DNA of 64,000 bases from a virus (taxonomy: Duplodnaviria > Caudoviricetes). Below the pieces are notes generated by a model. It ran no database searches, had not been told where the DNA came from, and saw only the letters and a program-made list of their open reading frames with translations. The stretch's first letter is position 1; every line of letters begins with the position of its first letter. The stretch lies in the IMG/VR virus record IMGVR_UViG_643692013_000008, positions 32,001 to 96,000 of that record, one strand, 5' to 3'. The position numbers and the translations under genes were made by a program. Of this stretch, positions 22,770 to 38,957 are shown piece after piece.

Positions 22770-22789
22770 CGGATACCTGAGACACCATC

Positions 22790-24388
22790 ATGACCGATCC
22801 CAACACCACCACGCCCGCGACTCTCCGAGCCGATGCGCTCGATCTGCTTCGCGAGATCGCCGCGCGCAAGCGATACGACCCGAACGTCCCGGCGCCTTGG
22901 GGCAACAACTCCGGTTGGAATACGATCATCTTGAAGAGCGAACTGCTCGCCCGTGTCGATGCGCTGCTCGACGCGACTGCTGCCGCCCCAGCCGTCGAGC
23001 CGATCCGGCTCGTCCACGTCGCCTTGGCCGAGGATGGTGGGAATCTTCGCTGGATGACGGGACGCAAGCCGCGGGACTGCGAGCTGTACATGATGCCTGA
23101 CGGCGGCCGGGCGCCGGCTGTCGTGTACGCCACTCGCTCCGCCCCGGTCGCCGAGGCCGAGCCGATCGATAAGCTTGAGCCGGCATTGATCCTCACCGGA
23201 GCGCAGTTGCTCGAAGCGCTGGATCTCGTCGCGCCGGATCGCACGGCTGACCAGTTCGAAAGCGAGGTGTCGTTCCAATACGGGAATGGCCATTCCGGCA
23301 AGGGCATGTACTGCTGGATCACCGACTATCCCGACGAAGGCGCGTCGCTGCTCGACGGCTCGACCGTCGCCGCTCAGGCTGTCGCCGCTGATGGGGATGC
23401 GTTGAAAGAAGCCGTGACGCGCACGATCGATACGATCAGACGGCAGCTTGAATTGATTTTTGAACGCGCCCCGGGAAACTTCCTCGACAAGGTGCCAGTC
23501 GTGCAGTCGTTGACCGCACACAAACATCGCTTGGAGAAGGCCCTCGCGATCACCGTGCCGCGCGCAGCAGTATCGCCGGCCACGGCTGAGACCTCCACGG
23601 GGATGCCCGACGAGGTGCGCGAGTCGCTGATGGACAGCCAATACCTCGCGGGCGTCAAAGCGGGCTGGAATGCTGCGAACGCAGCCGATCCGAATGCGGC
23701 GCTGGAGAAGATTCACGCCAGCCGCGCCGGCTACTTGCGGCCCCTGCGTGATTGGCAGAAAGCCGGACGCCCCGGCGTTCCCGCGACGCCGGCCACGGCC
23801 GACGAGCGGGCGGCGCTGCTCCAATGGGCCACGGAGCGATGGGATGCGGAAGTGAAGCACCGGCCGCTCATCAACGTCCATCGCCGCTCCCTTGACGATA
23901 CGTGGCGTCAGGTCATCCGGCATTGCGGCGGCGATGACGTGTCGCTGCTCGGGCCGCGACACGATGCCCTGCTCGCGGCAAATCCGATCAATACGACCGA
24001 GCGCGATCCCGCGTTCATCGATAACGACCTCGATTTCGAGCCGGATGCGCAGCACGCCGTCGCGGACATGGCGAACATCGGCTACGCGCTGATGCAGACG
24101 ATCGAGCGCATGGTGCCGGGCTACTGCTGGAACGAATCGCCGACCGAAATCGTGAGCGACCTCCTCAACGAACGCGACGAGGCCCGCGCATCGCAGGCCC
24201 CCGCACCGGCCGATACGCGCGACGTAGCGGCGTTCATCCGTGAAGTAGCTACGCAGAAGCCGGAGAAGCCAGATCACTGGAGCCCGTGTGGTCAGTGCCA
24301 GCGCAATGCAGAGCGCGCTCAGGATTTGCTCGATGCCGCCTGCGCACAGAGTATCGACCTGCCGGACAGCGAAGGGGGTGAAGCGTGA
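22790..24388 (+). CDS. Mosaic cassette protein A (Ea/Ead-like region)
   Basis: 532 aa; shares ordered linkers with 32822-34732. Confidence 0.8.
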   Translation: MTDPNTTTPATLRADALDLLREIAARKRYDPNVPAPWGNNSGWNTIILKSELLARVDALLDATAAAPAVEPIRLVHVALAEDGGNLRWMTGRKPRDCELYMMPDGGRAPAVVYATRSAPVAEAEPIDKLEPALILTGAQLLEALDLVAPDRTADQFESEVSFQYGNGHSGKGMYCWITDYPDEGASLLDGSTVAAQAVAADGDALKEAVTRTIDTIRRQLELIFERAPGNFLDKVPVVQSLTAHKHRLEKALAITVPRAAVSPATAETSTGMPDEVRESLMDSQYLAGVKAGWNAANAADPNAALEKIHASRAGYLRPLRDWQKAGRPGVPATPATADERAALLQWATERWDAEVKHRPLINVHRRSLDDTWRQVIRHCGGDDVSLLGPRHDALLAANPINTTERDPAFIDNDLDFEPDAQHAVADMANIGYALMQTIERMVPGYCWNESPTEIVSDLLNERDEARASQAPAPADTRDVAAFIREVATQKPEKPDHWSPCGQCQRNAERAQDLLDAACAQSIDLPDSEGGEA

Positions 24389-24654
24389 TCCCTCCGATGA
24401 CCGATCCGCTGGGGCGGCACTGGCGGCATCCGTCGCCCCAAGAAATCCTCGTTGACGACGAGCACGCCGTTATGTCGCGCTTGACCTACGACGAGCTGCT
24501 CGAGTACTCCACCACCATCCCCGCCGGGGTCTATCCGGGAAAGATGTGGAAGGCCGTCTACGGCGACCGCGCCTTTCTCCGCTGGTTCGGCATCGTCGAC
24601 GGCCGGACCGACGTGTGCTCGAACAACCAGCGCTTGATCCTGCTCTGCGACTAG
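24385..24654 (+). CDS. Hypothetical phage protein
   Basis: PPMTDPLG.HW..P...L.EYS.T.P.GVYPGKMWK. Confidence 0.7.
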   Translation: MIPPMTDPLGRHWRHPSPQEILVDDEHAVMSRLTYDELLEYSTTIPAGVYPGKMWKAVYGDRAFLRWFGIVDGRTDVCSNNQRLILLCD

Positions 24655-24663
24655 GAGGACCTC

Positions 24664-25056
24664 ATGAACGACCAACTCATCGAGGCGCGCAAGTTGATCG
24701 CACACGCCAGCGAGTACGCGATCTCGGCTTTGGGAAACGACTGGCACGAGCGCGCGACCGCCCTGCTCGCCCGGCCTGCGCCCGCTATCTCGGAAAGTCC
24801 CGAGGCGCACGACGAGGCAACACCAGCCTGGATGACGTGCGAATCGCGGCGCCCGTTCGTAGTCAACAGCCTGCGCTCACGTGCTGAAGACCTGCGCGCC
24901 GCCGAGAAACGCTGCCGGAACGCTTATCGCAAGGACTTCATGGGCTCCCCGGCGTGCTATCTCGCAGATGCCTACGGCGAAGCGGCCACGGCGCTGGAGG
25001 CGCGGCTCGCCGCGATCGACTCTGTCCTCGGAGGAGGTAGCCGTGCGGACCGCTGA
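24664..25056 (+). CDS. Hypothetical protein with PAPAISES linker
   Basis: GGAGG RBS; linker shared with 31810-32502. Confidence 0.7.
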   Translation: MNDQLIEARKLIAHASEYAISALGNDWHERATALLARPAPAISESPEAHDEATPAWMTCESRRPFVVNSLRSRAEDLRAAEKRCRNAYRKDFMGSPACYLADAYGEAATALEARLAAIDSVLGGGSRADR

Positions 25057-25153
25057 AGTAAATGCCGCGCTACGCGCTTCCGCTCACCCGAATGGGTGCT
25101 CCCATTCGAAGTGGCCGACGCCACCGGCGCGCGACCCGGATGCTGGTCCGACG
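25043..25153 (+). pseudogene. Frameshifted, truncated 5' remnant of a phage PD-(D/E)XK-like gene
   Basis: MRTAEVNAALR then, in the shifted frame, RFRSPEWVLPFEVADATGAR..WSD; strong GGAGG RBS; cut by an antisense gene. Confidence 0.5.
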
Positions 25154-25381
25154 TTAAAAAAGGCCTTCGTCCTGCTTCTTCTGCTCTGGCACCAAGTTGA
25201 TCGTAATCGCTGCGTCAGTCGCGTACTTCCCGACAAGCGTTTCAACTGCCGAGGTCGGCTGAATAGCCAACTGCGTTATCGCCGCCTGGTATTTGTGCCC
25301 TGTCAAATCGCTTATCGCCTTCGCCAGCGCTTGTTCAAGGTCTTCAATCGAAACCGACTTCAATGGATTCACATTGGACAT
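25154..25381 (-). CDS. Small antisense moron protein
   Basis: GGAG RBS, lower GC, opposite to the operon. Confidence 0.65.
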   Translation of the reverse strand: MSNVNPLKSVSIEDLEQALAKAISDLTGHKYQAAITQLAIQPTSAVETLVGKYATDAAITINLVPEQKKQDEGLF

Positions 25382-25416
25382 GAACTGCTCCTCCAGAAAT
25401 TTCGGGACATCCTAAC

Positions 25417-26361
25417 ATGAGCGAGAACAGCAAAATCGAGTGGTGCGACCACACATTCAACCCGTGGATCGGTTGCACGAAGATTTCACCCGGCTGCGAT
25501 AACTGCTACGCCGAGGCGATGATGGACAAGAGAATGCACAAGGTGAAGTGGGGAGCGTCAGCACTGCGCGCCCGCACGACCCCCGAGAACTGGCGGCTGC
25601 CGGTGCGGTGGAACGCGCGACACGACGAGTTCATGGCCGCTCACGGGCGCCGGCAGCGCGTCTTCTGCTCATCGCTTGCCGATGTATTCGATAACCGCGT
25701 GCCGTCCTCCTGGCGTCGCGACCTTTTCGCGCTGATCAAGGCCACCCCGAATCTCGACTGGCTCCTTCTGACGAAGAGAACCGGCAACGCGCGCGAAATG
25801 CTCATCGGCAGCCCGCTATCGCCCATCCCGGACAACGTCTGGCTCGGCGCGACGATCGTCAACCAGGAGGAAGCTGACCGCGATATCCCGAAGCTCCTCG
25901 CGGTGCCAGCGCGCGTGCGCTTCCTGTCGATCGAGCCGATGCTCGGGCCGATCGATCTCAACCAGGCGCTCCCGCCGTTTCATTGTGACACCTGCGACGC
26001 CGACTATGGCGCGCTGTCGGCCCACGCATCTGGAACGCCGATTGGCATCGACTGGGTGATCGCTGGCGGCGAAAGCGGCCACCGCGCGCGGCCCGCCCAT
26101 CCCGACTGGTTCCGGTCGCTGCGCGACCAATGCGCCGAGGCGCACGTGGCGTTCTTCTTCAAGCAGTGGGGGCAATGGGCGCCAGGTTCGAACTGGCCTG
26201 AGGACGTCCCGATCCCAAGCGGCGAGCGAGCTTACCTTGACGGGCAGGAGACGGACGACAACGAATCGGTTTGGAGCGTCGGCAAGCGCGCTGCCGGCCG
26301 GCTGCTCGACGGCCGCACGCATGACGAATTCCCCGTGATCGAGGATACGAAATGCGCTTAG
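25417..26361 (+). CDS. DUF5131 / Gp37-Gp68 family protein (radical-SAM-like)
   Basis: SKIEWCDHTFNPWIGCTKISPGCDNCYA, LLLTKR, FLSIEPMLG, WVIAGGESG, FFKQWG. Confidence 0.9.
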   Translation: MSENSKIEWCDHTFNPWIGCTKISPGCDNCYAEAMMDKRMHKVKWGASALRARTTPENWRLPVRWNARHDEFMAAHGRRQRVFCSSLADVFDNRVPSSWRRDLFALIKATPNLDWLLLTKRTGNAREMLIGSPLSPIPDNVWLGATIVNQEEADRDIPKLLAVPARVRFLSIEPMLGPIDLNQALPPFHCDTCDADYGALSAHASGTPIGIDWVIAGGESGHRARPAHPDWFRSLRDQCAEAHVAFFFKQWGQWAPGSNWPEDVPIPSGERAYLDGQETDDNESVWSVGKRAAGRLLDGRTHDEFPVIEDTKCA

Positions 26362-26933
26362 CTATTTGCGACCACCGCCGCCTCGATTTCCAGAGTTTCG
26401 CTGGCCCCAACCAATTCCCTGGCCAGCTCTTTCAGCTTATCGCCCCAGCCAACGTGAAATTCCGCACTGGGCATCGGGACAATTCCCGCGCATCCCGCGA
26501 TGGCTGTCTGGACCCTCAGCAACGCGCCCACGGTATTAGGGGTAGGCGCCTGTTCTGGCCTAATCAGGCTCACGATATTCATCGCGGCTCGCACGGCATT
26601 TACTTGGTCGGGATGCGGCCACTTCAAGCCATTGGTGGCAGGAAGCCGCTGAATCTGTTCATCCAACGTGAGCACGACGTCTCTGCACTGCGACACGAGG
26701 ACCGCCACGCATTGGACTCGCTCATGCAGTTCATCACGACGCAGCTTCCTGTCGCGATCCGCCTGTTGGGACGCGATCTTAGTCGCCGCGACGATGGCGC
26801 CGATCGAGCCCACCGCCTGAACCCATGCCGCCCAGTCCGAACTTTGCGCAGGTGGCCAGCGCAACACTGCCGTGACGAGTATCCCTGCTGCAAACGCCCC
26901 TATGAACATTGCCAGACCGGAGTAGCGACCCAT
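26358..26933 (-). CDS. Antisense moron membrane protein
   Basis: Two N-terminal TM segments, WAAWVQAVGSIGAI motif, GGGAG RBS. Confidence 0.7.
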   Translation of the reverse strand: MGRYSGLAMFIGAFAAGILVTAVLRWPPAQSSDWAAWVQAVGSIGAIVAATKIASQQADRDRKLRRDELHERVQCVAVLVSQCRDVVLTLDEQIQRLPATNGLKWPHPDQVNAVRAAMNIVSLIRPEQAPTPNTVGALLRVQTAIAGCAGIVPMPSAEFHVGWGDKLKELARELVGASETLEIEAAVVANS

Positions 26934-27570
26934 GCGTGAACTCCCGATATTGTTTTCTGCGCCGATGGTACGGGCGATATCGCAGGGTCGCAAGTCGCAG
27001 ACGCGCCGCCCGATGACCCCGCAACCGTATGACGACTACCGCCGGCTCGCCTGGATGTTCGCGAAGAACCGCGGAAGCTGGGGACCGCCCGGTGGTGCTC
27101 CCGATCCGGCATGGCTGGCTCGCTGCCCCTACGGCGGACCGGACGACCAGCTCTGGGTCCGCGAGACGTTCGTGGCATTCGGCCGCTGGGAGACGCGCTT
27201 CAGCGTGAAGAAAGGCCGGGACCAATGGCACTTCGTCGACATGACGCTCGACACCGGCCGGCAGTACCGCTACGGCGGCGACTTGCCGAACGCGCAGCGT
27301 GCGGGCGCGACGCCGACCTGGTGGCGCCGGCCGGCGATCTTCATGCCACGCGCCGCCTCGCGCACGCAGCTCGAGGTGGTCCGCACCAGGATCGAACGCG
27401 TGCAGCAGATCAGCGAGGCCGATGCGATCGCGGAAGGAATGAGCACCGGCGACATCAATCCGGTGGGCTCATACGCCGAACTCTGGGATGGCCTCAACGC
27501 GGAGCGCGGCCTAGGTTGGAAGGCGAACCCGTGGGTGTGGGTGGTGGAATTTCGGAGGATGGAAGGATGA
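26932..27570 (+). CDS. ASCH/PUA-like phage protein, homologous to 31106-31813
   Basis: PILFSAPMVRAI..GRK.QTRR, LWVRE, MPR.ASR, NPWVWVVEF. Confidence 0.85.
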   Translation: MRELPILFSAPMVRAISQGRKSQTRRPMTPQPYDDYRRLAWMFAKNRGSWGPPGGAPDPAWLARCPYGGPDDQLWVRETFVAFGRWETRFSVKKGRDQWHFVDMTLDTGRQYRYGGDLPNAQRAGATPTWWRRPAIFMPRAASRTQLEVVRTRIERVQQISEADAIAEGMSTGDINPVGSYAELWDGLNAERGLGWKANPWVWVVEFRRMEG

Positions 27571-27815
27571 GCACGGGACTGATGACGCCTGAGGACCTGG
27601 TGAAGGTCACCCACAAGAAACGATACAGCGCGCAAGCGAAGTGGTTCAAGGCGCAGTACGGCGTCGACGTGCCGCAGCGGACCGACGGCAGCATCGTGCT
27701 GACGTGGGAGACCCTCGACGCTCTCGCCGAGGCCAAGCTCGGGATTCGGGCTGTCGACCGGCGGATCGATGCGTCGCCCGATCGCCCACCGATCCACGTG
27801 CTGCGAAAAGCATGA
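27567..27815 (+). CDS. xis: Excisionase-like (DUF4224) protein
   Basis: Small HTH-like protein coupled to int; T..KR..AQ..W......R.DGS. Confidence 0.75.
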   Translation: MSTGLMTPEDLVKVTHKKRYSAQAKWFKAQYGVDVPQRTDGSIVLTWETLDALAEAKLGIRAVDRRIDASPDRPPIHVLRKA

Positions 27816-28948
27816 CGCCCCGCCGCCGAAAGAGCCCAGATGGGCTCCCGAGCCGCGTCTACATTCGCGACGGGTCGTTCTATTGGGTCCGGCCGGACAG
27901 CAACAAGTGGATCCGGCTATGCCGCGTCAGCGAGGGCGACGCGCTGATGCTCGAGCGCCTGGCCGCTGAGAAGCGCCAGTTCACGGCGGCCGCCGGTGGC
28001 GGCAACCTGCCCAGGCTGGTCGGCGAATTCATGGACACGCACAAGATGCGCTACGCCCCATCCTTCCGCGACGAGTGGGTGCGTCGCGGCGAGGCGGTAA
28101 TCGAATCGCTCTGCGAGTGGAACGTCGAGCGCGTCGACGCTGGAGCCGTCGAGGACTTCCTCATGAAGAACTGGGCGGACCGGCTGCCAATGCAGCGGGC
28201 GATGAAAGCGTGGCTGTCGACGTTCTTCAACTGGATCATCCGCCGGAAGAAACTGATGCAGGTGAACCCCTGCCGCGAGGTCATCGTCAAGAAGCCGAAG
28301 GCCCGCGACGTCTACATCCCGGACCGGGATTTCGTCGCCATTCGCGATGCGCTGATGACCTACACCTACACGAAGAACGCCGGCACGCCGAAGGAGAAGA
28401 CCTTGGTCGGTAAGGTACAGACGGGGCCGATGATGCAGTGCTTCATCGACCTCTGCTACCTGACCTGCCAGCGCTCGACGGACATCCGGCTGCTGCGGTG
28501 GGACCAGATCGACAGGGATGCCGGCGTTATCCACTTCGTGCCGACGAAGACGGAGGATTCGAGCGGCGAGGCCGTGGACTGGCCCCTGACGCCCGATATC
28601 GAGGCGGTGCTGGCGCGCGCGAAGCTGCTGGACCCGGCTTTCGGGCAGACCTACGTTATCCGGGACAGGAAAGGCAAACCGAAGACGGATCAGTCGTGCC
28701 GCGACGCGTGGGACGGGGCGATCGATCGCGTCGCCAAGCTCGACCCGAGCATCGCGGGTAAACCCTACACGATCAAGGATATTCGCGCGAAGGCGCTGAC
28801 GGACGCGAAGCGCGCCGGGTATGCAATCGAGGATCTGAGGGTGGCCGGGGCGCACACGGATACTGCGACGACCGAGACCTACCTGAAGGCGCGGGAGGTA
28901 CCCCGCTCCAAGGTCGTCCTGCACCTTCCGATGCCGAAATCGGCATAA
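27812..28948 (+). CDS. int: Tyrosine integrase of prophage A
   Basis: TCQRSTDI (R), KT, KDIRAKA (KxxR variant), GAHT, TETY. Confidence 0.92.
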   Translation: MTPRRRKSPDGLPSRVYIRDGSFYWVRPDSNKWIRLCRVSEGDALMLERLAAEKRQFTAAAGGGNLPRLVGEFMDTHKMRYAPSFRDEWVRRGEAVIESLCEWNVERVDAGAVEDFLMKNWADRLPMQRAMKAWLSTFFNWIIRRKKLMQVNPCREVIVKKPKARDVYIPDRDFVAIRDALMTYTYTKNAGTPKEKTLVGKVQTGPMMQCFIDLCYLTCQRSTDIRLLRWDQIDRDAGVIHFVPTKTEDSSGEAVDWPLTPDIEAVLARAKLLDPAFGQTYVIRDRKGKPKTDQSCRDAWDGAIDRVAKLDPSIAGKPYTIKDIRAKALTDAKRAGYAIEDLRVAGAHTDTATTETYLKAREVPRSKVVLHLPMPKSA

Positions 28949-28959
28949 CCTGGGCGGCG

Positions 28960-28992
28960 ATATTGGAGAACCTCCAATATGGTCTCCAATAT
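28960..28992. repeat. Putative integrase arm-type sites (CTCCAATAT x3)
   Basis: Inverted copy 28960-28968; direct copies 28972-28980 and 28984-28992. Confidence 0.6.
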
Positions 28993-29014
28993 GCACAAAA
29001 AATAGGCACAAACG

Positions 29015-29048
29015 AAAAACCCGCGTCAGCCTTAACTGACGCGGGTTT
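29015..29048. terminator. Intrinsic terminator 3' of the tRNA fragment
   Basis: AAACCCGCGTCAG-loop-CTGACGCGGGTTT perfect 13-bp stem. Confidence 0.85.
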
Positions 29049-29053
29049 GATAC

Positions 29054-29100
<47 letters not shown>

Positions 29101-29141
29101 TGAATTGCATCACCAGCACAATCAGATACTTAGGCCATTTT

Positions 29142-29213
29142 GTCTAACTTGATGCCTAATTCTTAATCAGCTTCTGGTGCGGCTTTGCGATGGGATTTCA
29201 CCCCAAGTTAGAC
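29142..29213. repeat. Putative arm-type sites of integrase B
   Basis: GTCTAACTTG 29142-29151 and its inverse CAAGTTAGAC 29204-29213. Confidence 0.55.
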
Positions 29214-29221
29214 GACAAAAA

Positions 29222-30328
29222 TCAACTGGTGCGACGCATCGGAACGGGTGTCACACGCTCCACTTCGCGAGCTTTGGTGTAGTGCGCGGTCATTTCCGCC
29301 GTGGTGTGTCCTGCGAGTGCCTGCGCCGCTCTCGCACCCTCGAGCCGCTGCTTGTCGGTAAGGGCTTTCGCTCTCAGGTCATGGAAATGCATACCGACGA
29401 GAAACCGAGGATCCGGCTCCGTGCCCTTCGCAGCGCACTCGCCCTCATAGGACTTGCGCGCGCGCTTAATCGCCCGTTTCCATGCTGTCTGTGCGCCGCT
29501 GTAGGTATAGCGCGCGCCGTCCTGCGTGCAGATGATCGGTCCGATTGCTTTCACCTTGCCGGCCTTCGCCGCGTCGAGCGTGGCGCGCAAGTCCGGCGTC
29601 AATTGAATCAGGAGGCGCACGCCACTGCTGTTTACCGTTTTCGAGGGATGGAAGAAGAGTCCGTCGTTGCTGACATCTTGCCAGTTCAGCGCAAGCAGAT
29701 CGCCGATGCGTTGTGCGGTCTGATAGGCCAGGTCGATAAGGCAGACGATCGTCGTTCCGGATGCGGTCGGGCGTCCGTCCAACCCAACGAGCGCGGCAGC
29801 GCGGACAGCCTCCAGCTCCATGTCCGTGATGTAGCGGTCGCGCGCCTTCTCCTCGGCGCCGGCGACCTCGCGCGCCGGATTGCGATCGCGCAGCCCCTTG
29901 CGCACGGCGTGCGCGAAGATCAGCGACAGGAGCGCCTTGTATTTGTTGCTGGTGTTCGGTTTCGTCGAGAAGTGCTTGTCGAGGAACCGGGCGATGTCGG
30001 CCGGGCGCACGTCCTCGACTGTCCACTGCGGCCCGAACTCCGATTTGACGAATGTCGCCATGCGCCGGTATTCCTCGCGCGTCTTCAGCGCATACTTCGG
30101 GAGCTTTACCAGCAGCCAGTCGTCGATGAGCGCAGGCATCGTGTCGGCAATACCTCGTTCATCCGCCTCGCGGTTGAACTTTGCGAGTTGCTCATAGAGG
30201 CGCGTGAGCCCATCGGTCGTACTGCAAAGGCGGTGCCACTTCCGGCGCATATCGACGAAGTACCACGAACCGTGCTTCTCGTAGACGCGCGCGGGCAGCG
30301 GTGACGCCTTCTTCCGTCGCCCGATCAT
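29222..30328 (-). CDS. int: Tyrosine integrase of prophage B
   Basis: TAQRIGDLL, FHDLRAKA, LAGHTT, TAHY. Confidence 0.95.
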   Translation of the reverse strand: MIGRRKKASPLPARVYEKHGSWYFVDMRRKWHRLCSTTDGLTRLYEQLAKFNREADERGIADTMPALIDDWLLVKLPKYALKTREEYRRMATFVKSEFGPQWTVEDVRPADIARFLDKHFSTKPNTSNKYKALLSLIFAHAVRKGLRDRNPAREVAGAEEKARDRYITDMELEAVRAAALVGLDGRPTASGTTIVCLIDLAYQTAQRIGDLLALNWQDVSNDGLFFHPSKTVNSSGVRLLIQLTPDLRATLDAAKAGKVKAIGPIICTQDGARYTYSGAQTAWKRAIKRARKSYEGECAAKGTEPDPRFLVGMHFHDLRAKALTDKQRLEGARAAQALAGHTTAEMTAHYTKAREVERVTPVPMRRTS

Positions 30329-30556
30329 CTACGCCGCCTTCATGTCGGAAGTGAGTTGCGGACGGCGCCGGCTTCGCTCCTGATTCTTCGGGATGCTGAT
30401 GCCTGCGATATGGTGTCGCCACACGCGCACGCTGCCGTCGGGCCGGCGATCTGCCGGGATGCCAGCGCGCATCAGGGCCTGCAATTGCCGGCACGGCTGG
30501 CGGTAGCCTGTTGCCTCGACGATCTCCTGCTCGCTGAGTGTGAGAGATTCGCTCAC
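30329..30556 (-). CDS. xis: Excisionase-like (DUF4224) protein
   Basis: LSEQEIVEATGYRQ...Q..AL...GI....RPDGS.RV, adjacent to int. Confidence 0.8.
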   Translation of the reverse strand: MSESLTLSEQEIVEATGYRQPCRQLQALMRAGIPADRRPDGSVRVWRHHIAGISIPKNQERSRRRPQLTSDMKAA

Positions 30557-30744
30557 TTCCCGTCCTCCGTATTAGTGCGCGCCCGGCGTTCATAGCTCGC
30601 CCAATACGCTATTGCTTCGTCTATCGCTGGCTCGGTGTGGCCGAGTTGCGCCGCGCGTTCCCTGCATGCCTTGAGGGTCCTGATATTTTCGTTTCGGGAC
30701 ACGTTCACCAAAGCCTTCAGCGCGTTAAATACTTCTTCGTTCAC
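30553..30744 (-). CDS. Hypothetical phage protein
   Basis: Coupled 63-aa ORF. Confidence 0.6.
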   Translation of the reverse strand: MNEEVFNALKALVNVSRNENIRTLKACRERAAQLGHTEPAIDEAIAYWASYERRARTNTEDGK

Positions 30745-31109
30745 GCTTCCCCTCCGGTATCAGTAGTGCGTGCGATCTCGGCAGCAGCGCGGGTGATGGC
30801 GCGGCGCAGTGCTTCGGCCGAGTCGCCGGGCTTTTCAACGATGAACACGCGCTCGTCAGGCTCACGATGAGCGGTGACGCTGACGTAGCCCGCGTTGATG
30901 CTGATATCGATGTCCATGCGCAGCTTCACCGCCAGCCGCAGCGCGTCGCCGTCGTCGGTGAGAGGGTTCCATCCTTCCGCAATGCCGGGCGTCTTTGAGT
31001 GCTTCGGTGAAAGAAGCATGTCACGCCAAAGCGGGTCATCCAATCGTGATCGGAGTATCTCGATCTCCGCCGCCTTCGCCGCCAGTTCCAACAGTTCTTT
31101 GTCGGTCAC
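30741..31109 (-). CDS. Hypothetical phage protein
   Basis: TDKELLELAAKAA...WNPLTDDGDALRLAV...RRAITRAAAEI. Confidence 0.75.
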   Translation of the reverse strand: MTDKELLELAAKAAEIEILRSRLDDPLWRDMLLSPKHSKTPGIAEGWNPLTDDGDALRLAVKLRMDIDISINAGYVSVTAHREPDERVFIVEKPGDSAEALRRAITRAAAEIARTTDTGGEA

Positions 31110-31813
31110 GATCTCTCTCCCTCGACGCGCTTGAACTCGACGACCCATACCCAGGGGTTGGCTTCCCAGAGCCCCGGACCCTTGAGGTTCCAGTTCTCGC
31201 CGCCGTGAAGTCGGTTGATAAAGTTGGCGAACGCATAGCGCGCGGAGCCCATACAACGGGTATGGCTGGTGGCGTCGCCCATGTGCCAGCCTTTGCGTTG
31301 AGTGCCGCGGACGACGGGATGGAAGGTCCGGCCGCCATCGACGCTGATGGAGCCTTTCGGCGGCTCGATACCGAAGTCGGTGAAAACTGCACCTTCGGCG
31401 ATCGCATCTCCCTCGCTGATGTCATGCAACCGCTCGACGCGCACGCCGGTGATTTCGAGCGTGATGCGCGAAAGGGTGCGTGGCATGTGGATCGAGGGCG
31501 TCCACCCCGCACCCCTGGCATCGCCACTCGGATCAGAATCGGCGCGATAGATCGTATGAGCTCGACGGCAAGGGATGCTGACTGATGCTGCCCAGCAATA
31601 ATCGGCCGGCTCATGAATGAACGCTTCGCGCACCCACAGGCGGTCGCCGGGCTCGCCATGCGGACATCCCTGCTGGTTCGGGAAGCGGCGCAGAATCGCG
31701 TCGAGGTTATCTTTCCCGGCGAATTCTTTCGCGACGCGCCGCGTCTGAGTCTTGCGCCCGTCGAGAATGGCGCGCACCATCGGTGCGCTGAAAATGATCG
31801 GCCGCTCTTTCAC
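31106..31813 (-). CDS. ASCH/PUA-like phage protein, homologous to 26932-27570
   Basis: ERPIIFSAPMVRAILDGRKTQTRR, LWVRE, NPWVWVVEF. Confidence 0.85.
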   Translation of the reverse strand: MKERPIIFSAPMVRAILDGRKTQTRRVAKEFAGKDNLDAILRRFPNQQGCPHGEPGDRLWVREAFIHEPADYCWAASVSIPCRRAHTIYRADSDPSGDARGAGWTPSIHMPRTLSRITLEITGVRVERLHDISEGDAIAEGAVFTDFGIEPPKGSISVDGGRTFHPVVRGTQRKGWHMGDATSHTRCMGSARYAFANFINRLHGGENWNLKGPGLWEANPWVWVVEFKRVEGERS

Positions 31814-32502
31814 GATTGATTCTCCTTGCGTGCGGCGTCGATCACCCGATCGAGAATTGCCTCGGGCGTCTCGTCCTGAACCTTGAATACCTCGACCTGC
31901 CGGTCGAACGCGATCGACATAGCGAGATCCATGCGGTCGTCATCGGGCACGTCGGATAGGATCAGCCGATACCGCGCAGCATCCCGCGCATCCTCGCTTT
32001 CCGAGATAGCCGGCGCAGCCTTGAGGGCGTCGTCGGTAGGATCAACCGGAAGCGGCATCCAGTGCGTGGGTACTTGCTCGCGTTCGAGTCGATCCATGAT
32101 TCCGGGGAGAGCAGTTCCGAACCAGTCCTTCTGGAACAGCGTTTCCTCATCGATATCATCGCATTCAGCCTCCGATGCCCATCGATCAAACGACGTATGC
32201 ATGATCAGCAGCACGCCGCAGTCCTCACGCCAGCCGAGCAACTCCGTTTCCTTCGGCGCCGTCTCGATCGGCTGCCACCGGTCGGCAGAGATAGCCGGCG
32301 CAGGCGAGACGCGGCGGTTCCATCGCTCGACTGCCGCCTCCGGGGATGCGCTGGGAATTTGTTCAATAGCGCATGTGCCTCCAAGGTTCAATGTATTGCG
32401 GCACTTCACGCCCCACCAATGCCTCTTGTCTATGGTTTGCTCCAAGACAACGGCGCCCCCGCAGAACGGGCACGGCAGCAGTTCGCTCAGCTTGTCGCTC
32501 AT
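31810..32502 (-). CDS. Lar-like zinc-finger plus DUF551-like mosaic protein
   Basis: LLPCPFCGG...AVERWNRR; WQPIETAPK...PTHWMPLP; two APAIS linkers. Confidence 0.75.
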   Translation of the reverse strand: MSDKLSELLPCPFCGGAVVLEQTIDKRHWWGVKCRNTLNLGGTCAIEQIPSASPEAAVERWNRRVSPAPAISADRWQPIETAPKETELLGWREDCGVLLIMHTSFDRWASEAECDDIDEETLFQKDWFGTALPGIMDRLEREQVPTHWMPLPVDPTDDALKAAPAISESEDARDAARYRLILSDVPDDDRMDLAMSIAFDRQVEVFKVQDETPEAILDRVIDAARKENQS

Positions 32503-32825
32503 CGGGTGTCTCCCTGAGATGTGACGATCGTTTCCGATTTGTGCTCGGTGATCGTCTGCTTGCCTTGGCGCCGCGATTCGGTCCAGTTGCGCTCGGTCGT
32601 CACGGTGCCGTCAGGGCAGCGGGTGAAGTAGTGCCAATTGCTATCGGCCCGGAACGCGTAGACCTTGCAGCCGTCGGCCTCGCGGATGACGTGGGGCTTT
32701 ACGTCGGCTTCCGCCTGCGCATGTTCGCGCTCCATGGCACGCTTTGCCCCGTCCGAGAAAACACCCCAATAGGTGCAGCCGCCGATGGCCGACAGCAGAA
32801 GGGCGAATATGAGAAGGTTCTTCAC
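32499..32825 (-). CDS. Exported/lipoprotein-like hypothetical protein
   Basis: Hydrophobic N-terminus; EADGCKVYAF...YFTRC. Confidence 0.7.
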   Translation of the reverse strand: MKNLLIFALLLSAIGGCTYWGVFSDGAKRAMEREHAQAEADVKPHVIREADGCKVYAFRADSNWHYFTRCPDGTVTTERNWTESRRQGKQTITEHKSETIVTSQGDTR

Positions 32826-34732
32826 GCTTCGCCTCCCTTCCCACCCTGCGCGCCCTGAGACTCTTTGGCCGCATGGGCGAGCGCCGGCAACGTATCGACG
32901 ATCCCCTTGTCGGAGAAGAAGCCGGATGCGAACACGGCGTTGTCATACGTGACCGGACGACGCCCGAATTCCAACGATGACAGGAAGGCCGGCGAAACTC
33001 GCATAGCCGTCGCCATGTCCATCAGCGTTGTGCCGGCAACGATCCGAAGCGCCCGCACGAGCATCCCGTAAGGCGTCAGGGGATTCTCGATGCTCGCCAC
33101 CGCCTCTCCCGCATCAGCAGGGGCGCTTCGGGGCAAATCACGGATGACTTGCTTTATCAGCGCACCTACGGCGGCCACGCTGCCGAACTCGATGTAGCCC
33201 GCTGCGTTCTCCCTGCCGCCGACGTGCTTGATGCGCTCGCCAAGGTTCATGCCGGCCGTCGGGCTCGGCTCGCGCGCCTCGGCCGGTGCGGAGGCCTGCG
33301 CGCGATAAAGCTCGACTTCCATGCGGAGCACTTCGGCGAGTCGTTTAACCAGTTCGATCTTGTTGAGCGGATCGTCGGGATGTACGGGATCGTCGCCGCG
33401 CAGAGTCACGCACACATCTGCAAGCGTTTCGCTCAGACGGCGGATCACGTAGGCATCCTCCGACTCTTCGCCCTCGTTCGCTTGAGGTGCGGCGGCCTGC
33501 GATGTGCGCGCAACGTTGAGCACAACCTCGTCTTCCACGGCGCGGGCGAACTGCCGCCAGCCCCATTGCTTCATGAAGCTGCCGAGGCCGCCCGGCATCG
33601 ATTCGGCGATCGCGTCGATGTCGGCGTCGTCAAGCCTCGCCGCCCGCTCGTCGGACGTGGCCGGCTCACTGGCAACGGGGAGCGTCCAATCGTCACTGAG
33701 ATGCGAACCAGTCAGCGGCACGCATCCGGCCTGCCGGAAGCAATCCCCTTTGCTGCCGCATTCGTGGTGGCACTTGCCGCCGTCAATGCAATAGCCTGCA
33801 TCTCGCAAGCAAGAGTGCAGCCATTTGACATGCGCTCGAACCTCGTCGGGCTCGGCCGTGGCCGGCTCGCCTTCGCCAGATTCGAGGTAGAAGCATCCCA
33901 GTTCGTTGCATGCCTGCGCCGTGCTTGATCCGCAGCGCGTGCATTTGCTCTCGGACGTGGCCGGCGATACTGCTGCGCGCTCGTCACCCATCAGCGCGGC
34001 CGTCGCGGTGACGAGGTGATAAGCGGGATCGCTGACGGCAATCTTGCCTTCAGAGCTCGCCTGATACCACGCGATCAGCAGCGACCAGATATCCGATATG
34101 AACTGGCGGGGCGTCATGCCGTCCGGGCAGCCCAACTCTTCGCACGCTTCGACGATTCCTTGCAGCTCGTCCGTGTCCGCCCCATCAGCGGCGACAGCCT
34201 GAGCGGCTATTTCCGGCACCGGCCAATCGCGAGTCGGGCAGTCTAAGGCTTGCTGGATAGTGCTGGTTGCATCTTGCCCTTCGCCCAATGGCACAGGTCC
34301 GAAATCGCGGATCGATGCCAATCTGACCGGCGCGGCGACAGTCTGAGCGTCAAATCCCCTGGCCGAAATGACCGCCTCGGATTGGCCCGATTCCTTGCTG
34401 GGATTGGGTTCCGTCCCGGCCGAAATCTCGTCGACCGGGGCGGCGGGAGAGGCGGCGAGCATGGCTGCGTAGATGCCGAGCGGCGTGCAGTTACGGAACG
34501 ACGTGCCTTTCGGAAGCCCGTCCCACAAGCACTCAAGCATGTCTCGCGTCGGTACGATCGGAACCAGCTTCCACCCCTCCGGTGCGGGCACTGCTGCTCG
34601 CGGGGAGGTGAGAAGGGCGCGAAGTGCATCGCCGTACTCGTCCATCGCGAGAGGCGTCAGCACGCTGATTGCCATGTTGATTGCTGCACGCTGCTCGTCC
34701 GTCAGCGCGGCTGCGGTGGTGTTGTTCGTCAT
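32822..34732 (-). CDS. Mosaic cassette protein B with C-terminal XRE HTH
   Basis: 636 aa; shared linkers with 22790-24388; GWKLVP module; LRIVAGTTLMDMA..MRVSPAFLSSLEFGRRP. Confidence 0.8.
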   Translation of the reverse strand: MTNNTTAAALTDEQRAAINMAISVLTPLAMDEYGDALRALLTSPRAAVPAPEGWKLVPIVPTRDMLECLWDGLPKGTSFRNCTPLGIYAAMLAASPAAPVDEISAGTEPNPSKESGQSEAVISARGFDAQTVAAPVRLASIRDFGPVPLGEGQDATSTIQQALDCPTRDWPVPEIAAQAVAADGADTDELQGIVEACEELGCPDGMTPRQFISDIWSLLIAWYQASSEGKIAVSDPAYHLVTATAALMGDERAAVSPATSESKCTRCGSSTAQACNELGCFYLESGEGEPATAEPDEVRAHVKWLHSCLRDAGYCIDGGKCHHECGSKGDCFRQAGCVPLTGSHLSDDWTLPVASEPATSDERAARLDDADIDAIAESMPGGLGSFMKQWGWRQFARAVEDEVVLNVARTSQAAAPQANEGEESEDAYVIRRLSETLADVCVTLRGDDPVHPDDPLNKIELVKRLAEVLRMEVELYRAQASAPAEAREPSPTAGMNLGERIKHVGGRENAAGYIEFGSVAAVGALIKQVIRDLPRSAPADAGEAVASIENPLTPYGMLVRALRIVAGTTLMDMATAMRVSPAFLSSLEFGRRPVTYDNAVFASGFFSDKGIVDTLPALAHAAKESQGAQGGKGGEA

Positions 34733-34739
34733 GGTGTCC

Positions 34740-35606
34740 TCAGATCAGTTCGATGCAGGTTTCAATGAATGCGGCCGCCGGGCGCGGGTCGATCGCGTTT
34801 CCGAGGGCGCGCAGCTTAGCCACTCGGGCGGGTATCCCATTTCCCAGCCAGCGAACTCGGGGTGGAGGGAGCCGCCGCCACTTTCCATCGGGGCATTCGA
34901 CGTACTGGCAACCGTCGATACTTGCGACGGCAGCGGAGAACCCCCGGCTCCGAAACTCATGTTCGGTCCACCCTTCGCCCCATCCGATGCCCGGATCGTT
35001 GACCAGAGCGCGATCACGACGTCCGAAAGATTCACTTGGTGACCGCTCGACATTCGCGCTAGAGCTTTCGATGGATCCTTGTAGTCGCCCCCGCCCTTCT
35101 GGCGGCACTGCGCCGTCGGCCACAAACCAATAACGATCTCGAAAGTGTTCCGCACCAGCGCTCGCGGCTTCGATAGGCATTGCCCCCACGGCGTATTCCA
35201 GGGCTTCCAGGTTATTTCGCACGAGACCGAGCCAGTCAGTCGCTGCCGCAACCTGCTCTCCAAAGATCGTTGCAGGTCGTCGCTGTTTGATGAGCCAGTA
35301 CCAATGAGGCCAGAGGTGTCGCGGGTCATCAAACCCAAGTCCCTTGCCTGCGACGGAGAAAGGTTGGCAAGGACAGGAACCGGTCCAAACAGGTCTGTCA
35401 TCGGGCCAGCCTGCGAGGCGGAGGGCTCTTGACCATCCGCCAAGGCCGGCGAAGAAATGGCACTGCGTGTATCCGCGCAGGTCGTCAGGTCGGACATCCT
35501 CGATACTCCGTTCGTCGACGTCGCCAGGCGCGATGTGGCCGGCGGCGATCAGGTTGCGAAGCCACTGCGCCGCATACGGGTCAATCTCGTTGTAATAGGC
35601 GCTCAT
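34740..35606 (-). CDS. C5-cytosine methyltransferase, alpha-like polypeptide
   Basis: FFAGLGGW, GSCPCQPFS, EQV, HFRDRYWFV, LRALGNAI; no evident motif IX. Confidence 0.88.
   Translation of the reverse strand: MSAYYNEIDPYAAQWLRNLIAAGHIAPGDVDERSIEDVRPDDLRGYTQCHFFAGLGGWSRALRLAGWPDDRPVWTGSCPCQPFSVAGKGLGFDDPRHLWPHWYWLIKQRRPATIFGEQVAAATDWLGLVRNNLEALEYAVGAMPIEAASAGAEHFRDRYWFVADGAVPPEGRGRLQGSIESSSANVERSPSESFGRRDRALVNDPGIGWGEGWTEHEFRSRGFSAAVASIDGCQYVECPDGKWRRLPPPRVRWLGNGIPARVAKLRALGNAIDPRPAAAFIETCIELI
34745..35497 (-). CDS. Overprinted alternative-frame ORF: beta-like polypeptide with motif IX
   Basis: 250-aa ORF nested in another frame; LWPT/LWST TRD-like units and LHPEFAGWEMGYPPEW. Confidence 0.65.
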   Translation of the reverse strand: MSDLTTCADTRSAISSPALADGQEPSASQAGPMTDLFGPVPVLANLSPSQARDLGLMTRDTSGLIGTGSSNSDDLQRSLESRLRQRLTGSVSCEITWKPWNTPWGQCLSKPRALVRNTFEIVIGLWPTAQCRQKGGGDYKDPSKALARMSSGHQVNLSDVVIALWSTIRASDGAKGGPNMSFGAGGSPLPSQVSTVASTSNAPMESGGGSLHPEFAGWEMGYPPEWLSCAPSETRSTRARRPHSLKPASN

Positions 35607-36355
35607 ATCGTTTCCAAGATCAGCGGGCTTTGCTGCAGCCGCTGCGCCTGCATATCGCGGCAATCCGGATCGAGCTCGCAGCCGATCCAGTGTCTGCCGT
35701 TTCGGATGGCGGCGAGCGCTGTACTGCCGCTGCCGAGGAAAGGGTCGAGCACGATGCCGCCAGGTGGCACGCTGTAGCGCACCATCAGCTCGATCAGATC
35801 GACGGGTTTCTGTGTAGGGTGAAGCGCATGGCCGTGCTCATTCCTCATGTCGATCACGCTCGTGCGCAGGCGCGGGCCGCCGTCCACGCTGGTGTAATGG
35901 CCGCGGTCGATGTCGCCCCAGTGAGCTGCTCGAGTCTTGCGGCGCACCTGTTTTTTGCGCGCGTCGTGCGTGACCTGCGGGCACTTGTAGACGTCGGACC
36001 AAGCGCCGCGATAGAACAGCACCGCATGCTCGTGGACGCGCCGAAAGCGATCATTGTGGAAGCCAGTGCCGTTCTGCTTGCGCCACACGATGTCCTGCGA
36101 GTACCGGAACCCGGCGCGCTCCATCAGTTCGAACGTGGGCGCGATGAACCGGAGACTGCCGAATACCCAAATCGATCCGGCTGGTTTCAGGGTTCGCGCG
36201 CATGCATCGATCCAGCCGTCGACCACGCGATCCCACTTCAGGGAAGTGTCGCCATAGGGCGGATCGGCAATGACGGCATCAGCCACGCCGGCCGGGATCA
36301 TCGGCAGCAGCTCGCGGCAGTCTCCGAAGTGGCATCGGTCAAGCCAGTCGCTCAT
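35603..36355 (-). CDS. Beta-class N6-adenine/N4-cytosine DNA methyltransferase
   Basis: DPPY, HPTQKP, VLDPFLGSGST. Confidence 0.92.
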   Translation of the reverse strand: MSDWLDRCHFGDCRELLPMIPAGVADAVIADPPYGDTSLKWDRVVDGWIDACARTLKPAGSIWVFGSLRFIAPTFELMERAGFRYSQDIVWRKQNGTGFHNDRFRRVHEHAVLFYRGAWSDVYKCPQVTHDARKKQVRRKTRAAHWGDIDRGHYTSVDGGPRLRTSVIDMRNEHGHALHPTQKPVDLIELMVRYSVPPGGIVLDPFLGSGSTALAAIRNGRHWIGCELDPDCRDMQAQRLQQSPLILETI

Positions 36356-38150: not shown

Positions 38151-38957
38151 TCAGTCCTGAAAGGCCCATTGGGGCAAAGAGATGAGGGAAATATCGCGCG
38201 AGTAGCCGGGCCACTCGTTAGCTGCCGAGCAGCGTGCGTAGGTGGCGAGGTTGCGTCGGTAGTCCGCGCGGCCTTGCTCGAGCGAAATCTGGTCGAGCAT
38301 CACGGCACTGGCCGCGTAGGGCCATTCCGTCTCGACTGCGACGAAAATGAACGCAGCGACGTCCAGGCCGGACGCAGCGGCATATCCGTCCGTGTAGTAC
38401 GCCGCCTGGACGTGATAGCGCTTGCGTGCGGCCTGGCGACGGAATTCGTCGGGGTCAGCGCTACTGAACGTCTTCACGTCGAGCAGCACCACGGACGTGT
38501 TGTCGAGGTCATGCGCGAAGTCGGGCCGGCAACGGCACTCGACACCCGTCTCGGGATCGGTCCAGAATGCCGACACTTCAGCGTGGCCGCGGGACAGTGC
38601 ATCGCGCACGTCAGGTAGCGCGCGAACCGAATCCGATTGACGCCATGCGACGTCGGCTTGGTCCTGCTGGATCGCAATGCGGTCCGGATGAGCTTCGACG
38701 AACTCCGTCCACACCTTCGTGTTCCGGCGCACGCTCGGGCCGATGACGTAGCGCTTGCCGAACTCGTCAGGCTCGAGGATCGCGCAATGCGCAAGCTGGC
38801 CCTCCAGTTGCCCAGACTTCGTCTCGCGCGCCGGCCGGTTGGGATCGCGGTGCCGCGCATAGAAATGGAACGGAGACACGTCGATGTCATCCAGCTGCGA
38901 CTTGCTCACCGGCGCCATGGCGTGATACGCCTCGATCGACAGGTTGTATTCGAGCAT
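38151..38957 (-). CDS. RecE/exonuclease VIII-like PD-(D/E)XK nuclease (DUF3799)
   Basis: YHA..VSKSQL, H.AILEP, AEVS.FW.D..TG..CRCRPD, DVKT, YH.QAAYY. Confidence 0.88.
   Translation of the reverse strand: MLEYNLSIEAYHAMAPVSKSQLDDIDVSPFHFYARHRDPNRPARETKSGQLEGQLAHCAILEPDEFGKRYVIGPSVRRNTKVWTEFVEAHPDRIAIQQDQADVAWRQSDSVRALPDVRDALSRGHAEVSAFWTDPETGVECRCRPDFAHDLDNTSVVLLDVKTFSSADPDEFRRQAARKRYHVQAAYYTDGYAAASGLDVAAFIFVAVETEWPYAASAVMLDQISLEQGRADYRRNLATYARCSAANEWPGYSRDISLISLPQWAFQD

What the first reader, a model, noticed from the sequence alone, without database searches (positions are those of the whole stretch)
22790..34732. Combinatorial 'cassette' proteins: ordered, near-identical DNA linkers flanking unrelated domains in both prophages
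Seen: 22790-24388 (+) and 32822-34732 (-) show no evident similarity except collinear linkers. These are APV(A/D)E (23139-23155 vs 34427-34443, 16/17 nt), AAQAVAADG (23369-23396 vs 34180-34207, 28/28), RAAVSPAT (23560-23584 vs 33956-33980, 25/25), PAT(A/S)DERAA (23788-23815 vs 33638-33665, 27/28), AR(A/T)SQA.AP and a GGEA stop. B has extra modules bounded by duplicated linker pieces (GCCGGCCACG; GCAGGCCNCCGCACC), where A has one fused linker. Inference: an in-frame, slot-based domain-shuffling system, probably driven by phage annealases acting on microhomology, that builds polyvalent early proteins. Novelty was not checked against the literature.
Basis: partly seen in the sequence, partly recalled or inferred. 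Interest (0 to 1): 0.88.

Follow-up and report, generated by a model that had tools for sequence, protein, structure and literature searches.

The report
Linker-jointed mosaic early proteins of Burkholderia prophages
Two neighbouring Burkholderia prophages each carry one long early gene built from small unrelated protein domains joined by the same ordered set of short linkers, which are almost identical in DNA, and comparison with over 100 relatives shows that phages swap domains slot by slot at these linkers.

Summary
Genes A (22790-24388 +) and B (32822-34732 -) share no protein similarity. They do share collinear, same-frame DNA words of 28/28, 25/25 and 27/28 nt; the longest word after codon shuffling is 18.

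They belong to a Burkholderia prophage family of at least 120 proteins. Up to eight in-frame Ala/Pro-rich linker types (a-h), plus conserved 5' and 3' gene junctions, occur in fixed order: 91 of 95 proteins against about 1 expected. Between the linkers lie about 340 module families (median 54 aa). Of members in families of 3 or more, 91% sit in one slot, and 108 of 110 proteins carry distinct combinations.

Linker cores are 20-29 nt and conserved as DNA. Codon identity at identical residues is 0.93, against 0.32-0.42 expected from codon usage and 0.71-0.76 in diverged homologous modules. Ends of shared DNA segments pile up in the linkers.

Best reading: a beads-on-a-string early accessory protein whose disordered linkers double as short-homology recombination joints. 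Both prophages encode recombination genes (an ERF annealase; a RecE-like nuclease). Recombination itself was not observed.

This is an elaborate intragenic variant of the linker idea of phage mosaicism. I found no paper describing it. The scan has noted simpler E. coli analogues on other DNA.

The parts
22790..24388 (+). Gene A, 532 aa mosaic early protein of prophage 1 (MTDPNTT... subfamily). Its linker order is b, c, d, e, f, then the GGEA-stop junction.
32822..34732 (-). Gene B, 636 aa mosaic early protein of prophage 2, with the full linker set a, b, c, d, e, f, g, h and the z junction. Its last module is an XRE-type HTH domain.
23139..23155 (+). Linker b in A (APVAE type)
23369..23396 (+). 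Linker c in A (AAQAVAADG), 28/28 identical to B
23560..23584 (+). Linker d in A (RAAVSPAT), 25/25 identical to B. It uses the minority codons GCA GCA GTA.
23788..23815 (+). Linker e in A (PATADERAA), 27/28 identical to B
24189..24213 (+). Linker f in A (ASQAPAP). It is a fused f/g-type linker with no module in between.
24371..24388 (+). 3' junction of A: the EGGEA-stop ending, with GTGA overlapping the start of the next gene
34586..34612 (-). Linker a in B (LTSPRAAVP)
34427..34444 (-). Linker b in B
34180..34207 (-). Linker c in B
33956..33980 (-). Linker d in B
33852..33866 (-). Extra partial d/e repeat (PATAE) in B. It separates two small Cys-rich modules.
33638..33665 (-). Linker e in B (PATSDERAA)
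33485..33504 (-). Linker f in B (SQAAAP)
33269..33291 (-). Linker g in B (APAEARE)
33101..33121 (-). Linker h in B (PADAGEA). It contains an SD-like purine run and an in-frame GTG.
32822..32848 (-). 3' junction z of B (AQGGKGGEA-stop). It provides an SD sequence plus a GTGA overlap start for the downstream gene. The same 27 nt precede at least 7 different downstream genes in relatives.
34733..34746 (-). Conserved 5' junction of B: the stop codon of the upstream methyltransferase gene lies inside the SD sequence, followed by the ATG
15226..16128 (+). ERF-family single-strand annealing protein of prophage 1, a candidate driver of linker recombination
38151..39179 (-). RecE-like PD-(D/E)XK exonuclease (DUF3799) of prophage 2. 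The adjacent unknown 349-aa gene (37098-38147) is a positional candidate for the annealase.
20285..22195 (+). C5 DNA methyltransferase gene upstream of A (shared synteny)
34740..35663 (-). C5 DNA methyltransferase gene immediately upstream of B (shared synteny)

Best explanation
A and B are two members of a large family of early-operon accessory proteins of temperate Burkholderia phages. Each protein is a string of small, independently folding domains of about 25-120 aa. The identifiable ones are XRE-type HTH, zinc ribbons, Lar-like, DUF551, ASCH/DUF3850, VRR-NUC, a dATP/dGTP pyrophosphohydrolase and AlpA; most are unknown. The domains are joined by disordered Ala/Pro-rich linkers.

The linkers form a fixed, ordered set of distinct sequences with 20-29 nt cores. 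Any two family genes that meet in one cell, for example co-resident prophages or an infecting phage and a prophage, can therefore cross over by short-homology recombination inside a linker. This exchanges everything on one side, in frame and at a domain boundary. Two crossovers swap a single module. Partial repeats shared by neighbouring linker types (d/e, f/g, c/b) allow a module to be inserted or deleted. Repeated exchange keeps the linkers homogeneous at the DNA level, while the modules diverge or are replaced.

Shown: the linker set, its order, the slot specificity of modules, reassortment, DNA-level conservation and breakpoint enrichment. Inferred: that the exchange is homologous recombination, mainly by phage annealases (ERF or RecET-type) rather than RecA; that the protein acts as one polypeptide; and that the modules serve host takeover or anti-defence.
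For: Identity and frame of the linkers:
- Shared words between A and B are far longer than chance and lie in the same frame and order.
- The most widely shared 5-mers among 121 homologues are the linkers.
- Order is collinear in 91 of 95 proteins with 3 or more linker types, against 1.3 expected under shuffling.

Modules and reassortment:
- There are 343 module families. In the 75 families with 3 or more members, 385 of 422 members (91%) lie in their modal slot.
- Each slot holds 14-34 families, 108 of 110 proteins have distinct combinations, and four-gamete quartets occur between adjacent slots.
- Modules of B have different closest relatives at 100%, 93%, 86%, 77% and 56% nt identity.
- Same-slot families are not homologous by hhalign in 69 of 78 pairs.

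DNA-level conservation:
- A fully degenerate scan for linker d found 18 family copies. Of these, 15 were identical at all 8 synonymous sites, including the minority codons GCA GCA GTA. The 47 non-family hits all differed from the family sequence.
- Codon identity at identical residues is 0.93 in linkers. It is 0.32-0.42 as expected from codon usage and 0.71-0.76 in diverged homologous modules.
- Linker pS is 0.109 and pN 0.067 over all pairs, against pS 0.217 (0.30 for non-identical pairs) in homologous modules.
- Identity drops sharply at linker edges.

Breakpoints and machinery:
- Of 133 ends of shared DNA segments, 53 fall in linker cores where 13.5% would be expected, p about 4e-14.
- Where a module is absent, d+e or f+g are fused through their shared repeat.
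- Cores of 20-29 nt and pairwise exact runs of 18-28 nt sit at the 23-27 bp minimal pairing segment cited for Red-beta, below the 31-34 bp cited for RecA. An Erf/exonuclease pair recombined as efficiently as Red in that study (PMC3945230).
- An ERF gene and a RecE-like nuclease gene lie in the same operons.
- The AlphaFold model of B has pTM 0.30, confident helical modules and pLDDT below 50 at the linkers.
Against: - No recombination event was observed directly.
- The pairwise statistics use related, non-independent sequences, so the p-values are only indicative.
- Linker amino acids are also conserved (pN 0.067, pN/pS 0.61), so a role for the peptides themselves is not excluded.
- Cores of 20-29 nt are at the lower limit for efficient homologous recombination.
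- 35 of the 133 segment ends lie more than 60 nt from any recognised linker.
- Only about a dozen Pfam families are recognisable among the modules, so the proposed function (host takeover or anti-defence) rests on analogy and on the position in the operon.
Confidence: 0.68

Rival explanations
1. The linkers are passive relics. An ancestral backbone gene had its domains replaced by illegitimate (non-homologous) recombination. Selection kept only in-frame joints at domain boundaries, and the linkers look conserved merely because they are the unreplaced remnants of a young gene.
For: This is the prevailing general model of phage mosaicism. 35 of 133 shared-segment ends lie far from any recognised linker. 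Modules also occur in quite different proteins of Pseudomonas, Acinetobacter and Rhizobium phages that are not members of this family.
Against: - Linkers are more conserved at synonymous sites than modules that are still homologous.
- The same 20-29 nt cores flank hundreds of unrelated modules.
- Modules are flanked by direct repeats of linker pieces.
- A second, parallel linker set exists in the pseudomallei/cepacia gene pool.
- Relics would decay at least as fast as the coding modules.
Confidence: 0.15
2. The linkers matter as peptides or as mRNA. They could be cleavage sites of a polyprotein that is processed into separate small early proteins. They could also be translational elements, such as rare-codon pauses for domain folding or internal restarts.
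For: - Linker residues are conserved (pN 0.067).
- Linker h holds an SD-like run followed by an in-frame GTG, and the z junction is an SD plus a start codon.
- Linker d uses minority codons.
- Processing is known for some large phage proteins, for example P1 DdrB as discussed in PMC5512222.
Against: - The nine linkers share no common motif that one protease could read.
- No peptidase domain was found in 87 members.
- Selection on the peptide does not explain near-identity at synonymous sites, nor pN/pS of 0.61.
- Most linkers lack any SD or start signal.
Confidence: 0.09
3. Programmed switching within one cell. A and B lie in inverted orientation about 10 kb apart, so recombination at a shared linker would invert the int-to-int segment and swap their 3' halves. 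This would act as a shufflon-like variation device in this double lysogen.
For: Three linkers are 25-28 nt identical between the inverted copies, and both prophages carry recombination genes.
Against: No dedicated invertase was found next to the genes. The family is equally mosaic in single prophages.
Confidence: 0.05

Closest known systems
Conserved boundary ('linker') sequences of the modular theory of lambdoid phage evolution (Susskind and Botstein 1978; boundary sequences of Clark et al. 2001, both from my own knowledge), with the experimental work on relaxed homologous recombination by phage annealases (PMC2327257, PMC3945230)
   Same: Short conserved DNA stretches sit between unrelated modules and recur with many different neighbours. 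The 5' and 3' junctions of this gene are exactly of that kind: a stop, an SD and a start. The linker cores have the length at which phage annealases can pair DNA.
   Different: Here eight of the joints lie inside one reading frame and encode disordered interdomain linkers. They form an ordered set of distinct sequences, and what is exchanged is protein domains, not genes.
Mosaic Ea22 / exo-xis region proteins of lambda and Stx phages (PMC10834534)
   Same: The position in the operon is the same: early-left, between the recombination and methylase genes and int. The proteins are mosaic, with portable C-terminal domains such as DUF551. DUF551, dATP/dGTP pyrophosphohydrolase, Lar and one Ead_Ea22 match occur among the modules of this family.
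   Different: A and B have no Ead_Ea22 coiled-coil core. Ea22 has 2-3 blocks and a handful of variants. This family has up to about 10 slots and hundreds of module families, with a defined linker set.
T-even phage gp38 adhesins: conserved glycine-rich motifs alternating with hypervariable segments (PMC3157838)
   Same: There is a strictly ordered series of conserved motifs with variable segments drawn from a limited palette, and the segments are shuffled by recombination at the conserved motifs.
   Different: The glycine-rich motifs form the structural core of a single domain of a virion protein, and the variable segments are loops. Here the conserved parts are disordered spacers and the variable parts are whole unrelated domains of an early protein. 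There is no sequence relationship.
Polyvalent proteins of phages and conjugative elements (Iyer et al. 2017, PMC5512222)
   Same: Many unrelated conflict-type domains are strung in one polypeptide, with highly variable architectures.
   Different: Polyvalent proteins are very large and rich in enzymes (peptidase, helicase, methylase, kinase). They are delivered with the DNA and encoded with late or transfer genes. A and B are 530-640 aa, made of very small domains, and sit in the early operon. No shared linker set has been described for polyvalent proteins.

Membership tests
Lambdoid-type boundary/linker sequences (modular theory) | Short conserved DNA stretch flanked on both sides by unrelated sequence | tested here: met
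   Alignments of every linker show identity collapsing at both edges. Cores are 20-29 nt.
Lambdoid-type boundary/linker sequences (modular theory) | Recurs in many phages next to different neighbours | tested here: met
   There are 14-34 module families per slot and 108 of 110 distinct combinations. The z junction precedes at least 7 different genes.
Lambdoid-type boundary/linker sequences (modular theory) | Lies at a gene boundary (stop, ribosome site, start) | tested here: not met
   This holds for the two outer junctions. The eight inner linkers are in frame inside one ORF.
Lambdoid-type boundary/linker sequences (modular theory) | Recombination actually occurs at the linker | not testable with these tools
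   There is only indirect support: breakpoint enrichment and synonymous homogeneity.
Ea22 / Ead family (Pfam PF13935) | Ead_Ea22 coiled-coil core domain | tested here: not met
   Pfam finds nothing in A and only a sub-threshold HTH_31 match in B. One of 87 relatives has a weak Ead_Ea22 match.
Ea22 / Ead family (Pfam PF13935) | Early-left operon position between recombination genes and int | tested here: met
Polyvalent proteins (Iyer et al. 2017) | Large multidomain protein with enzymatic conflict domains and often a processing peptidase | tested here: not met
   The Pfam census of 87 members found no peptidase, helicase or kinase. It found only small binding or nuclease-type domains.
Polyvalent proteins (Iyer et al. 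2017) | Encoded with virion/late or transfer genes and delivered with the DNA | tested here: not met
   Both genes lie in early operons beside methylase, recombination and integrase genes.
Viral polyprotein | Cognate protease and a common cleavage motif at the joints | tested here: inconclusive
   No protease domain was found and the linkers share no common motif. Processing by a host enzyme cannot be excluded in silico.
XRE-type HTH domain (last module of B only) | Five-helix HTH fold with sequence match to HTH_31/HTH_3 | tested here: inconclusive
   HTH_31 gives E 1.6e-4 but scores below Pfam's cut-off (22.4 vs 27 bits). The model's residues 550-630 have pLDDT around 90. The best Foldseek matches are ClgR, HigA and R-M controller proteins, with target-normalised TM-scores up to 0.80 but E only 4e-3.

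The most novel reading that the evidence does not exclude
The linker set is not a by-product. It is a maintained, standardised recombination grammar: a natural counterpart of overlap-based DNA assembly, with lineage-specific dialects. It would let temperate Burkholderia phages assemble combinatorial arrays of small host-takeover or anti-defence domains in frame. The linker sequences would be selected for evolvability, each distinct enough to keep order and long enough for phage annealases but too short for efficient RecA pairing.
Probability: 0.3. Interest if true: 0.85.

Novelty: new variant of a known kind. Interest (0 to 1): 0.62.

Why it matters
Whether phage mosaicism arises by homologous exchange at short conserved linkers, or by random illegitimate joining followed by selection, has been argued since 1978. 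Clean natural examples of linkers are few. This family offers an unusually rich one: nine ordered joints of 20-29 nt, hundreds of interchangeable domains, two linker dialects, and here two inverted copies in one cell next to phage recombinase genes. That makes the question directly testable, by recoding the linkers, deleting the recombinases and counting chimeras. It also delimits several hundred small phage early domains, most of unknown function, as ready-made units for anti-defence or host-takeover screens. Finally, it shows a natural design rule for in-frame domain shuffling.

Tried and rejected
The 'genome' is one 107.6-kb contig.
- Megablast of A against the phage collection found nothing. 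B matched only one module of phage BgManors32.
- A first, loose single-linkage clustering of modules collapsed into one giant cluster because of residual linker flanks. It was replaced by stricter criteria.
- The search for related loci with the family alignment failed because no conserved 7-10 column stretch exists.
- The single genome-contig scan, with a degenerate linker-g pattern, returned 115 loci, all chance hits in other GC-rich organisms and none a family member. It says nothing about distribution.
- Foldseek of the whole-protein model recognised only the terminal HTH domain.
- Considered and rejected: that the modules of one slot are diverged homologues; that codon bias explains linker identity; that linkers occur elsewhere in the record.
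- Eight searches of the paper library found no description of this family.


Full report
**1. The observation**

Gene A (22790-24388, +, 532 aa) and gene B (32822-34732, -, 636 aa) are intact ORFs. BLASTP finds no similarity except three or four short patches.

At the DNA level they share exact words of 28, 25 and 17+10 nt (27/28 overall), plus shorter ones. All are in the same codon phase and the same order. In 200 codon shuffles the longest shared word had median 11 and maximum 18 nt.

**2. Context**

The window holds two prophages whose early operons converge.

- Prophage 1 (+ strand): an ERF-family annealase (15226-16128), a C5 methyltransferase (20285-22195), gene A, small genes including DUF5131, and an integrase (27641-28948).
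- Prophage 2 (- strand): a CI-like repressor gene (41781-42506), a RecE-like PD-(D/E)XK nuclease (38151-39179), an unknown 349-aa gene, N6/N4 and C5 methyltransferases, gene B, a Lar-like gene, and an integrase (29222-30328).

Both genes therefore occupy the same accessory position of the early operon, comparable to the exo-xis region of lambda.

**3. A large family with an ordered linker set**

Exact and degenerate linker words recur in IMG/VR prophage contigs. A protein search returned 120 further proteins from B. glumae, B. gladioli, B. plantarii, the cepacia complex and the pseudomallei/thailandensis group. Shorter forms occur in Ralstonia and Paraburkholderia.

The most widely shared 5-mers in these proteins are the linkers themselves. 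I distinguish eight inner types:

| Type | Peptide |
|---|---|
| a | LTSPRAAVP |
| b | AAPAAPVAE |
| c | AAQAVAADG |
| d | RAAVSPAT |
| e | PATADERAA |
| f | RASQAAAP |
| g | AAPAEAREP |
| h | PADAGEA |

There is also a conserved start (MTNNTTA) and end (AQGGKGGEA-stop, called z). Among 95 proteins with at least three types, 91 have them in this order, against 1.3 expected if the order were shuffled. Types can be skipped or duplicated but are almost never permuted.

**4. Modules**

The segments between linkers have median 54 aa (interquartile range 43-85) and fall into 343 families under strict clustering. In the 75 families with three or more members, 385 of 422 members (91%) lie in one slot; for example, one family is found 42 of 42 times between a and b.

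Each slot holds 14-34 families in this sample. Of 110 proteins, 108 have different module combinations, and four-gamete quartets occur between adjacent slots.

Profile comparison of families sharing a slot gives below 50% probability for 69 of 78 pairs. The high scores come from the shared N- and C-terminal flanks. So the modules of a slot are not diverged versions of one domain.

Single modules of A and B each match different phages, namely KS10 gp24, BcepNY3 gp60, BgManors32, and Pseudomonas, Acinetobacter and Rhizobium phages, where they sit inside other proteins. Within B, neighbouring modules have closest relatives at 100%, 93%, 86%, 77% and 56% nt identity in different contigs.

**5. The linkers are conserved as DNA**

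- A scan allowing every synonymous variant of linker d found 18 family copies. Fifteen are identical at all eight free positions, including the minority codons GCA, GCA and GTA. The 47 non-family hits all differ from the family sequence.
- Over all linkers and all pairs, codon identity at identical residues is 0.93. Codon usage alone predicts 0.32-0.42. Homologous modules below 85% amino-acid identity give 0.71-0.76.
- Linker pS is 0.109 and pN 0.067 (ratio 0.61). Homologous modules have pS 0.217, or 0.30 when identical pairs are left out, and pN 0.104.
- Identity collapses within a few bases of each linker edge. Cores are 20-29 nt, and pairwise exact runs have medians of 18-28 nt.
- Of 133 internal ends of shared DNA segments, 53 lie in linker cores (13.5% expected) and 76 lie within 9 nt (18.8% expected). 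The binomial p is about 4e-14, though the pairs are not independent.

**6. Fine anatomy**

Neighbouring linker types share sub-repeats: d and e share a 14-nt piece, f and g share about 20 nt, and c/b hybrids exist. Where a slot is empty, the two linkers are fused through that piece, as in A's f linker and in contigs L007, L009 and L011. Each such module is therefore in effect flanked by short direct repeats.

The outer junctions are classic gene-boundary linkers. At the 5' end, the stop codon of the upstream gene lies inside the SD, followed by the ATG. At the 3' end, the last residues are encoded by an SD plus a GTGA stop/start overlap, and this same 27-nt junction precedes at least seven different downstream genes.

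A second linker dialect (ASPVEQPA, APQPAQADA and others; start MNDQQQ) is used in the pseudomallei/thailandensis/cepacia pool and shares only g and h. A degenerate scan again showed one dominant DNA form, in 17 of 38 hits, with most others differing by one or two changes.

**7. The protein**

The AlphaFold model of B, built with the family alignment, has pTM 0.30. It shows confident helical blocks and pLDDT below 50 at or around every linker, which is a beads-on-a-string picture. Only the last block finds solved relatives: XRE-type HTH domains such as ClgR, HigA and R-M controller proteins.

A Pfam census of 87 members recognises few modules: HTH_31 (5 members), DUF551 (4), DUF3850 (2), DnaJ-type zinc finger (2), VRR-NUC (2), UPF0175 (2), and dATP/dGTP pyrophosphohydrolase, AlpA, Lar, Anti-TRAP and Ead_Ea22 (1 each). 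This repertoire overlaps that of small early accessory genes of lambdoid phages. The function as host takeover or anti-defence is an inference from this overlap and from the operon position.

**8. Mechanism**

The most economical reading is that crossovers occur by short-homology recombination inside the linkers.

The published minimal efficient pairing segment is 23-27 bp for Red-beta and 31-34 bp for RecA, and an Erf/exonuclease pair recombined as efficiently as Red in that study (PMC3945230; see also PMC2327257). RecET operons from Burkholderia prophages support recombineering in B. glumae with 80-bp arms (PMC8313284). The linker cores fit the annealase range, and both prophages carry such genes.

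Exchange would homogenise the linkers, which would explain why they are more conserved than the coding modules. Distinct sequences for each slot would preserve order and frame. None of this was observed directly.

The rivals I keep are passive relics of illegitimate recombination (0.15), peptide or mRNA function including polyprotein processing (0.09), and intracellular inversion switching between the two inverted copies (0.05).

**9. Comparison and novelty**

The idea of conserved linkers at module boundaries is old, and earlier follow-ups of this scan documented simpler cases in E. coli lambdoid prophages on other DNA: shared gene junctions, and Ea22-type genes with one repeated linker.

What is different here:
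- The joints lie inside one reading frame.
- There are eight ordered, mutually distinct types.
- Slot-specific libraries hold hundreds of unrelated domains.
- There are lineage dialects.
- DNA-level conservation clearly exceeds that of the modules.

The mosaic Ea22 proteins (PMC10834534), the T-even gp38 adhesins (PMC3157838) and polyvalent proteins (PMC5512222) are analogies, not memberships. Eight searches of the held paper library found no description of this family. That library is incomplete, so this is not proof of novelty.

I rate the finding a new variant of a known kind, with interest 0.62.

Noticed in passing
window 28949-29221: The 273-bp spacer between the two convergent integrase genes contains, at about 29056-29090, what looks like the 3' part of a tRNA gene on the minus strand (T-arm and acceptor end). 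ARAGORN finds no whole tRNA in the window. It is probably an att-site remnant marking where the two prophages abut.
   Followed up: partly
window 22707-22776: Just upstream of gene A lie two hairpins, the second followed by a U tract, which looks like a terminator. The fold z-score is only -1.9. An earlier first-reader note calls this a third copy of a repeated two-hairpin element of both early operons. A's 5' junction also differs from the family consensus junction.
   Followed up: partly
loci L064-L100 and proteins P0038, P0057, P0097-P0100: A second linker dialect and a different conserved start (MNDQQQSRADALT) and end occur in prophages of B. pseudomallei, B. thailandensis and the cepacia complex. 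It shares only linkers g and h with the glumae/gladioli dialect.
   Followed up: partly
window 31810-32502 (-): The second gene downstream of B (after the 108-aa ORF 32499-32825 that overlaps B's stop) has a Lar-type restriction-alleviation domain in its first 64 residues, followed by about 165 unassigned residues. Lar-like modules also occur inside family members, so the same domains exist both as separate genes and as beads.
   Followed up: no
window 37098-38147 (-): A 349-aa protein of PHROG 3657 with no Pfam match sits directly downstream of the RecE-like nuclease. By position it is a candidate for an unrecognised annealase.
   Followed up: no
window 20285-22195 (+): The C5 methyltransferase upstream of A is unusually long (636 aa). 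Its first about 240 residues match a PHROG of unknown function, phrog_32684.
   Followed up: no
L001 5375-6616 (phage BgManors32): An isolated, sequenced B. gladioli phage carries a 413-aa relative whose linkers are largely degraded, while two modules are still shared with the family. One of them is 85% nt identical to B's e-f module.
   Followed up: partly
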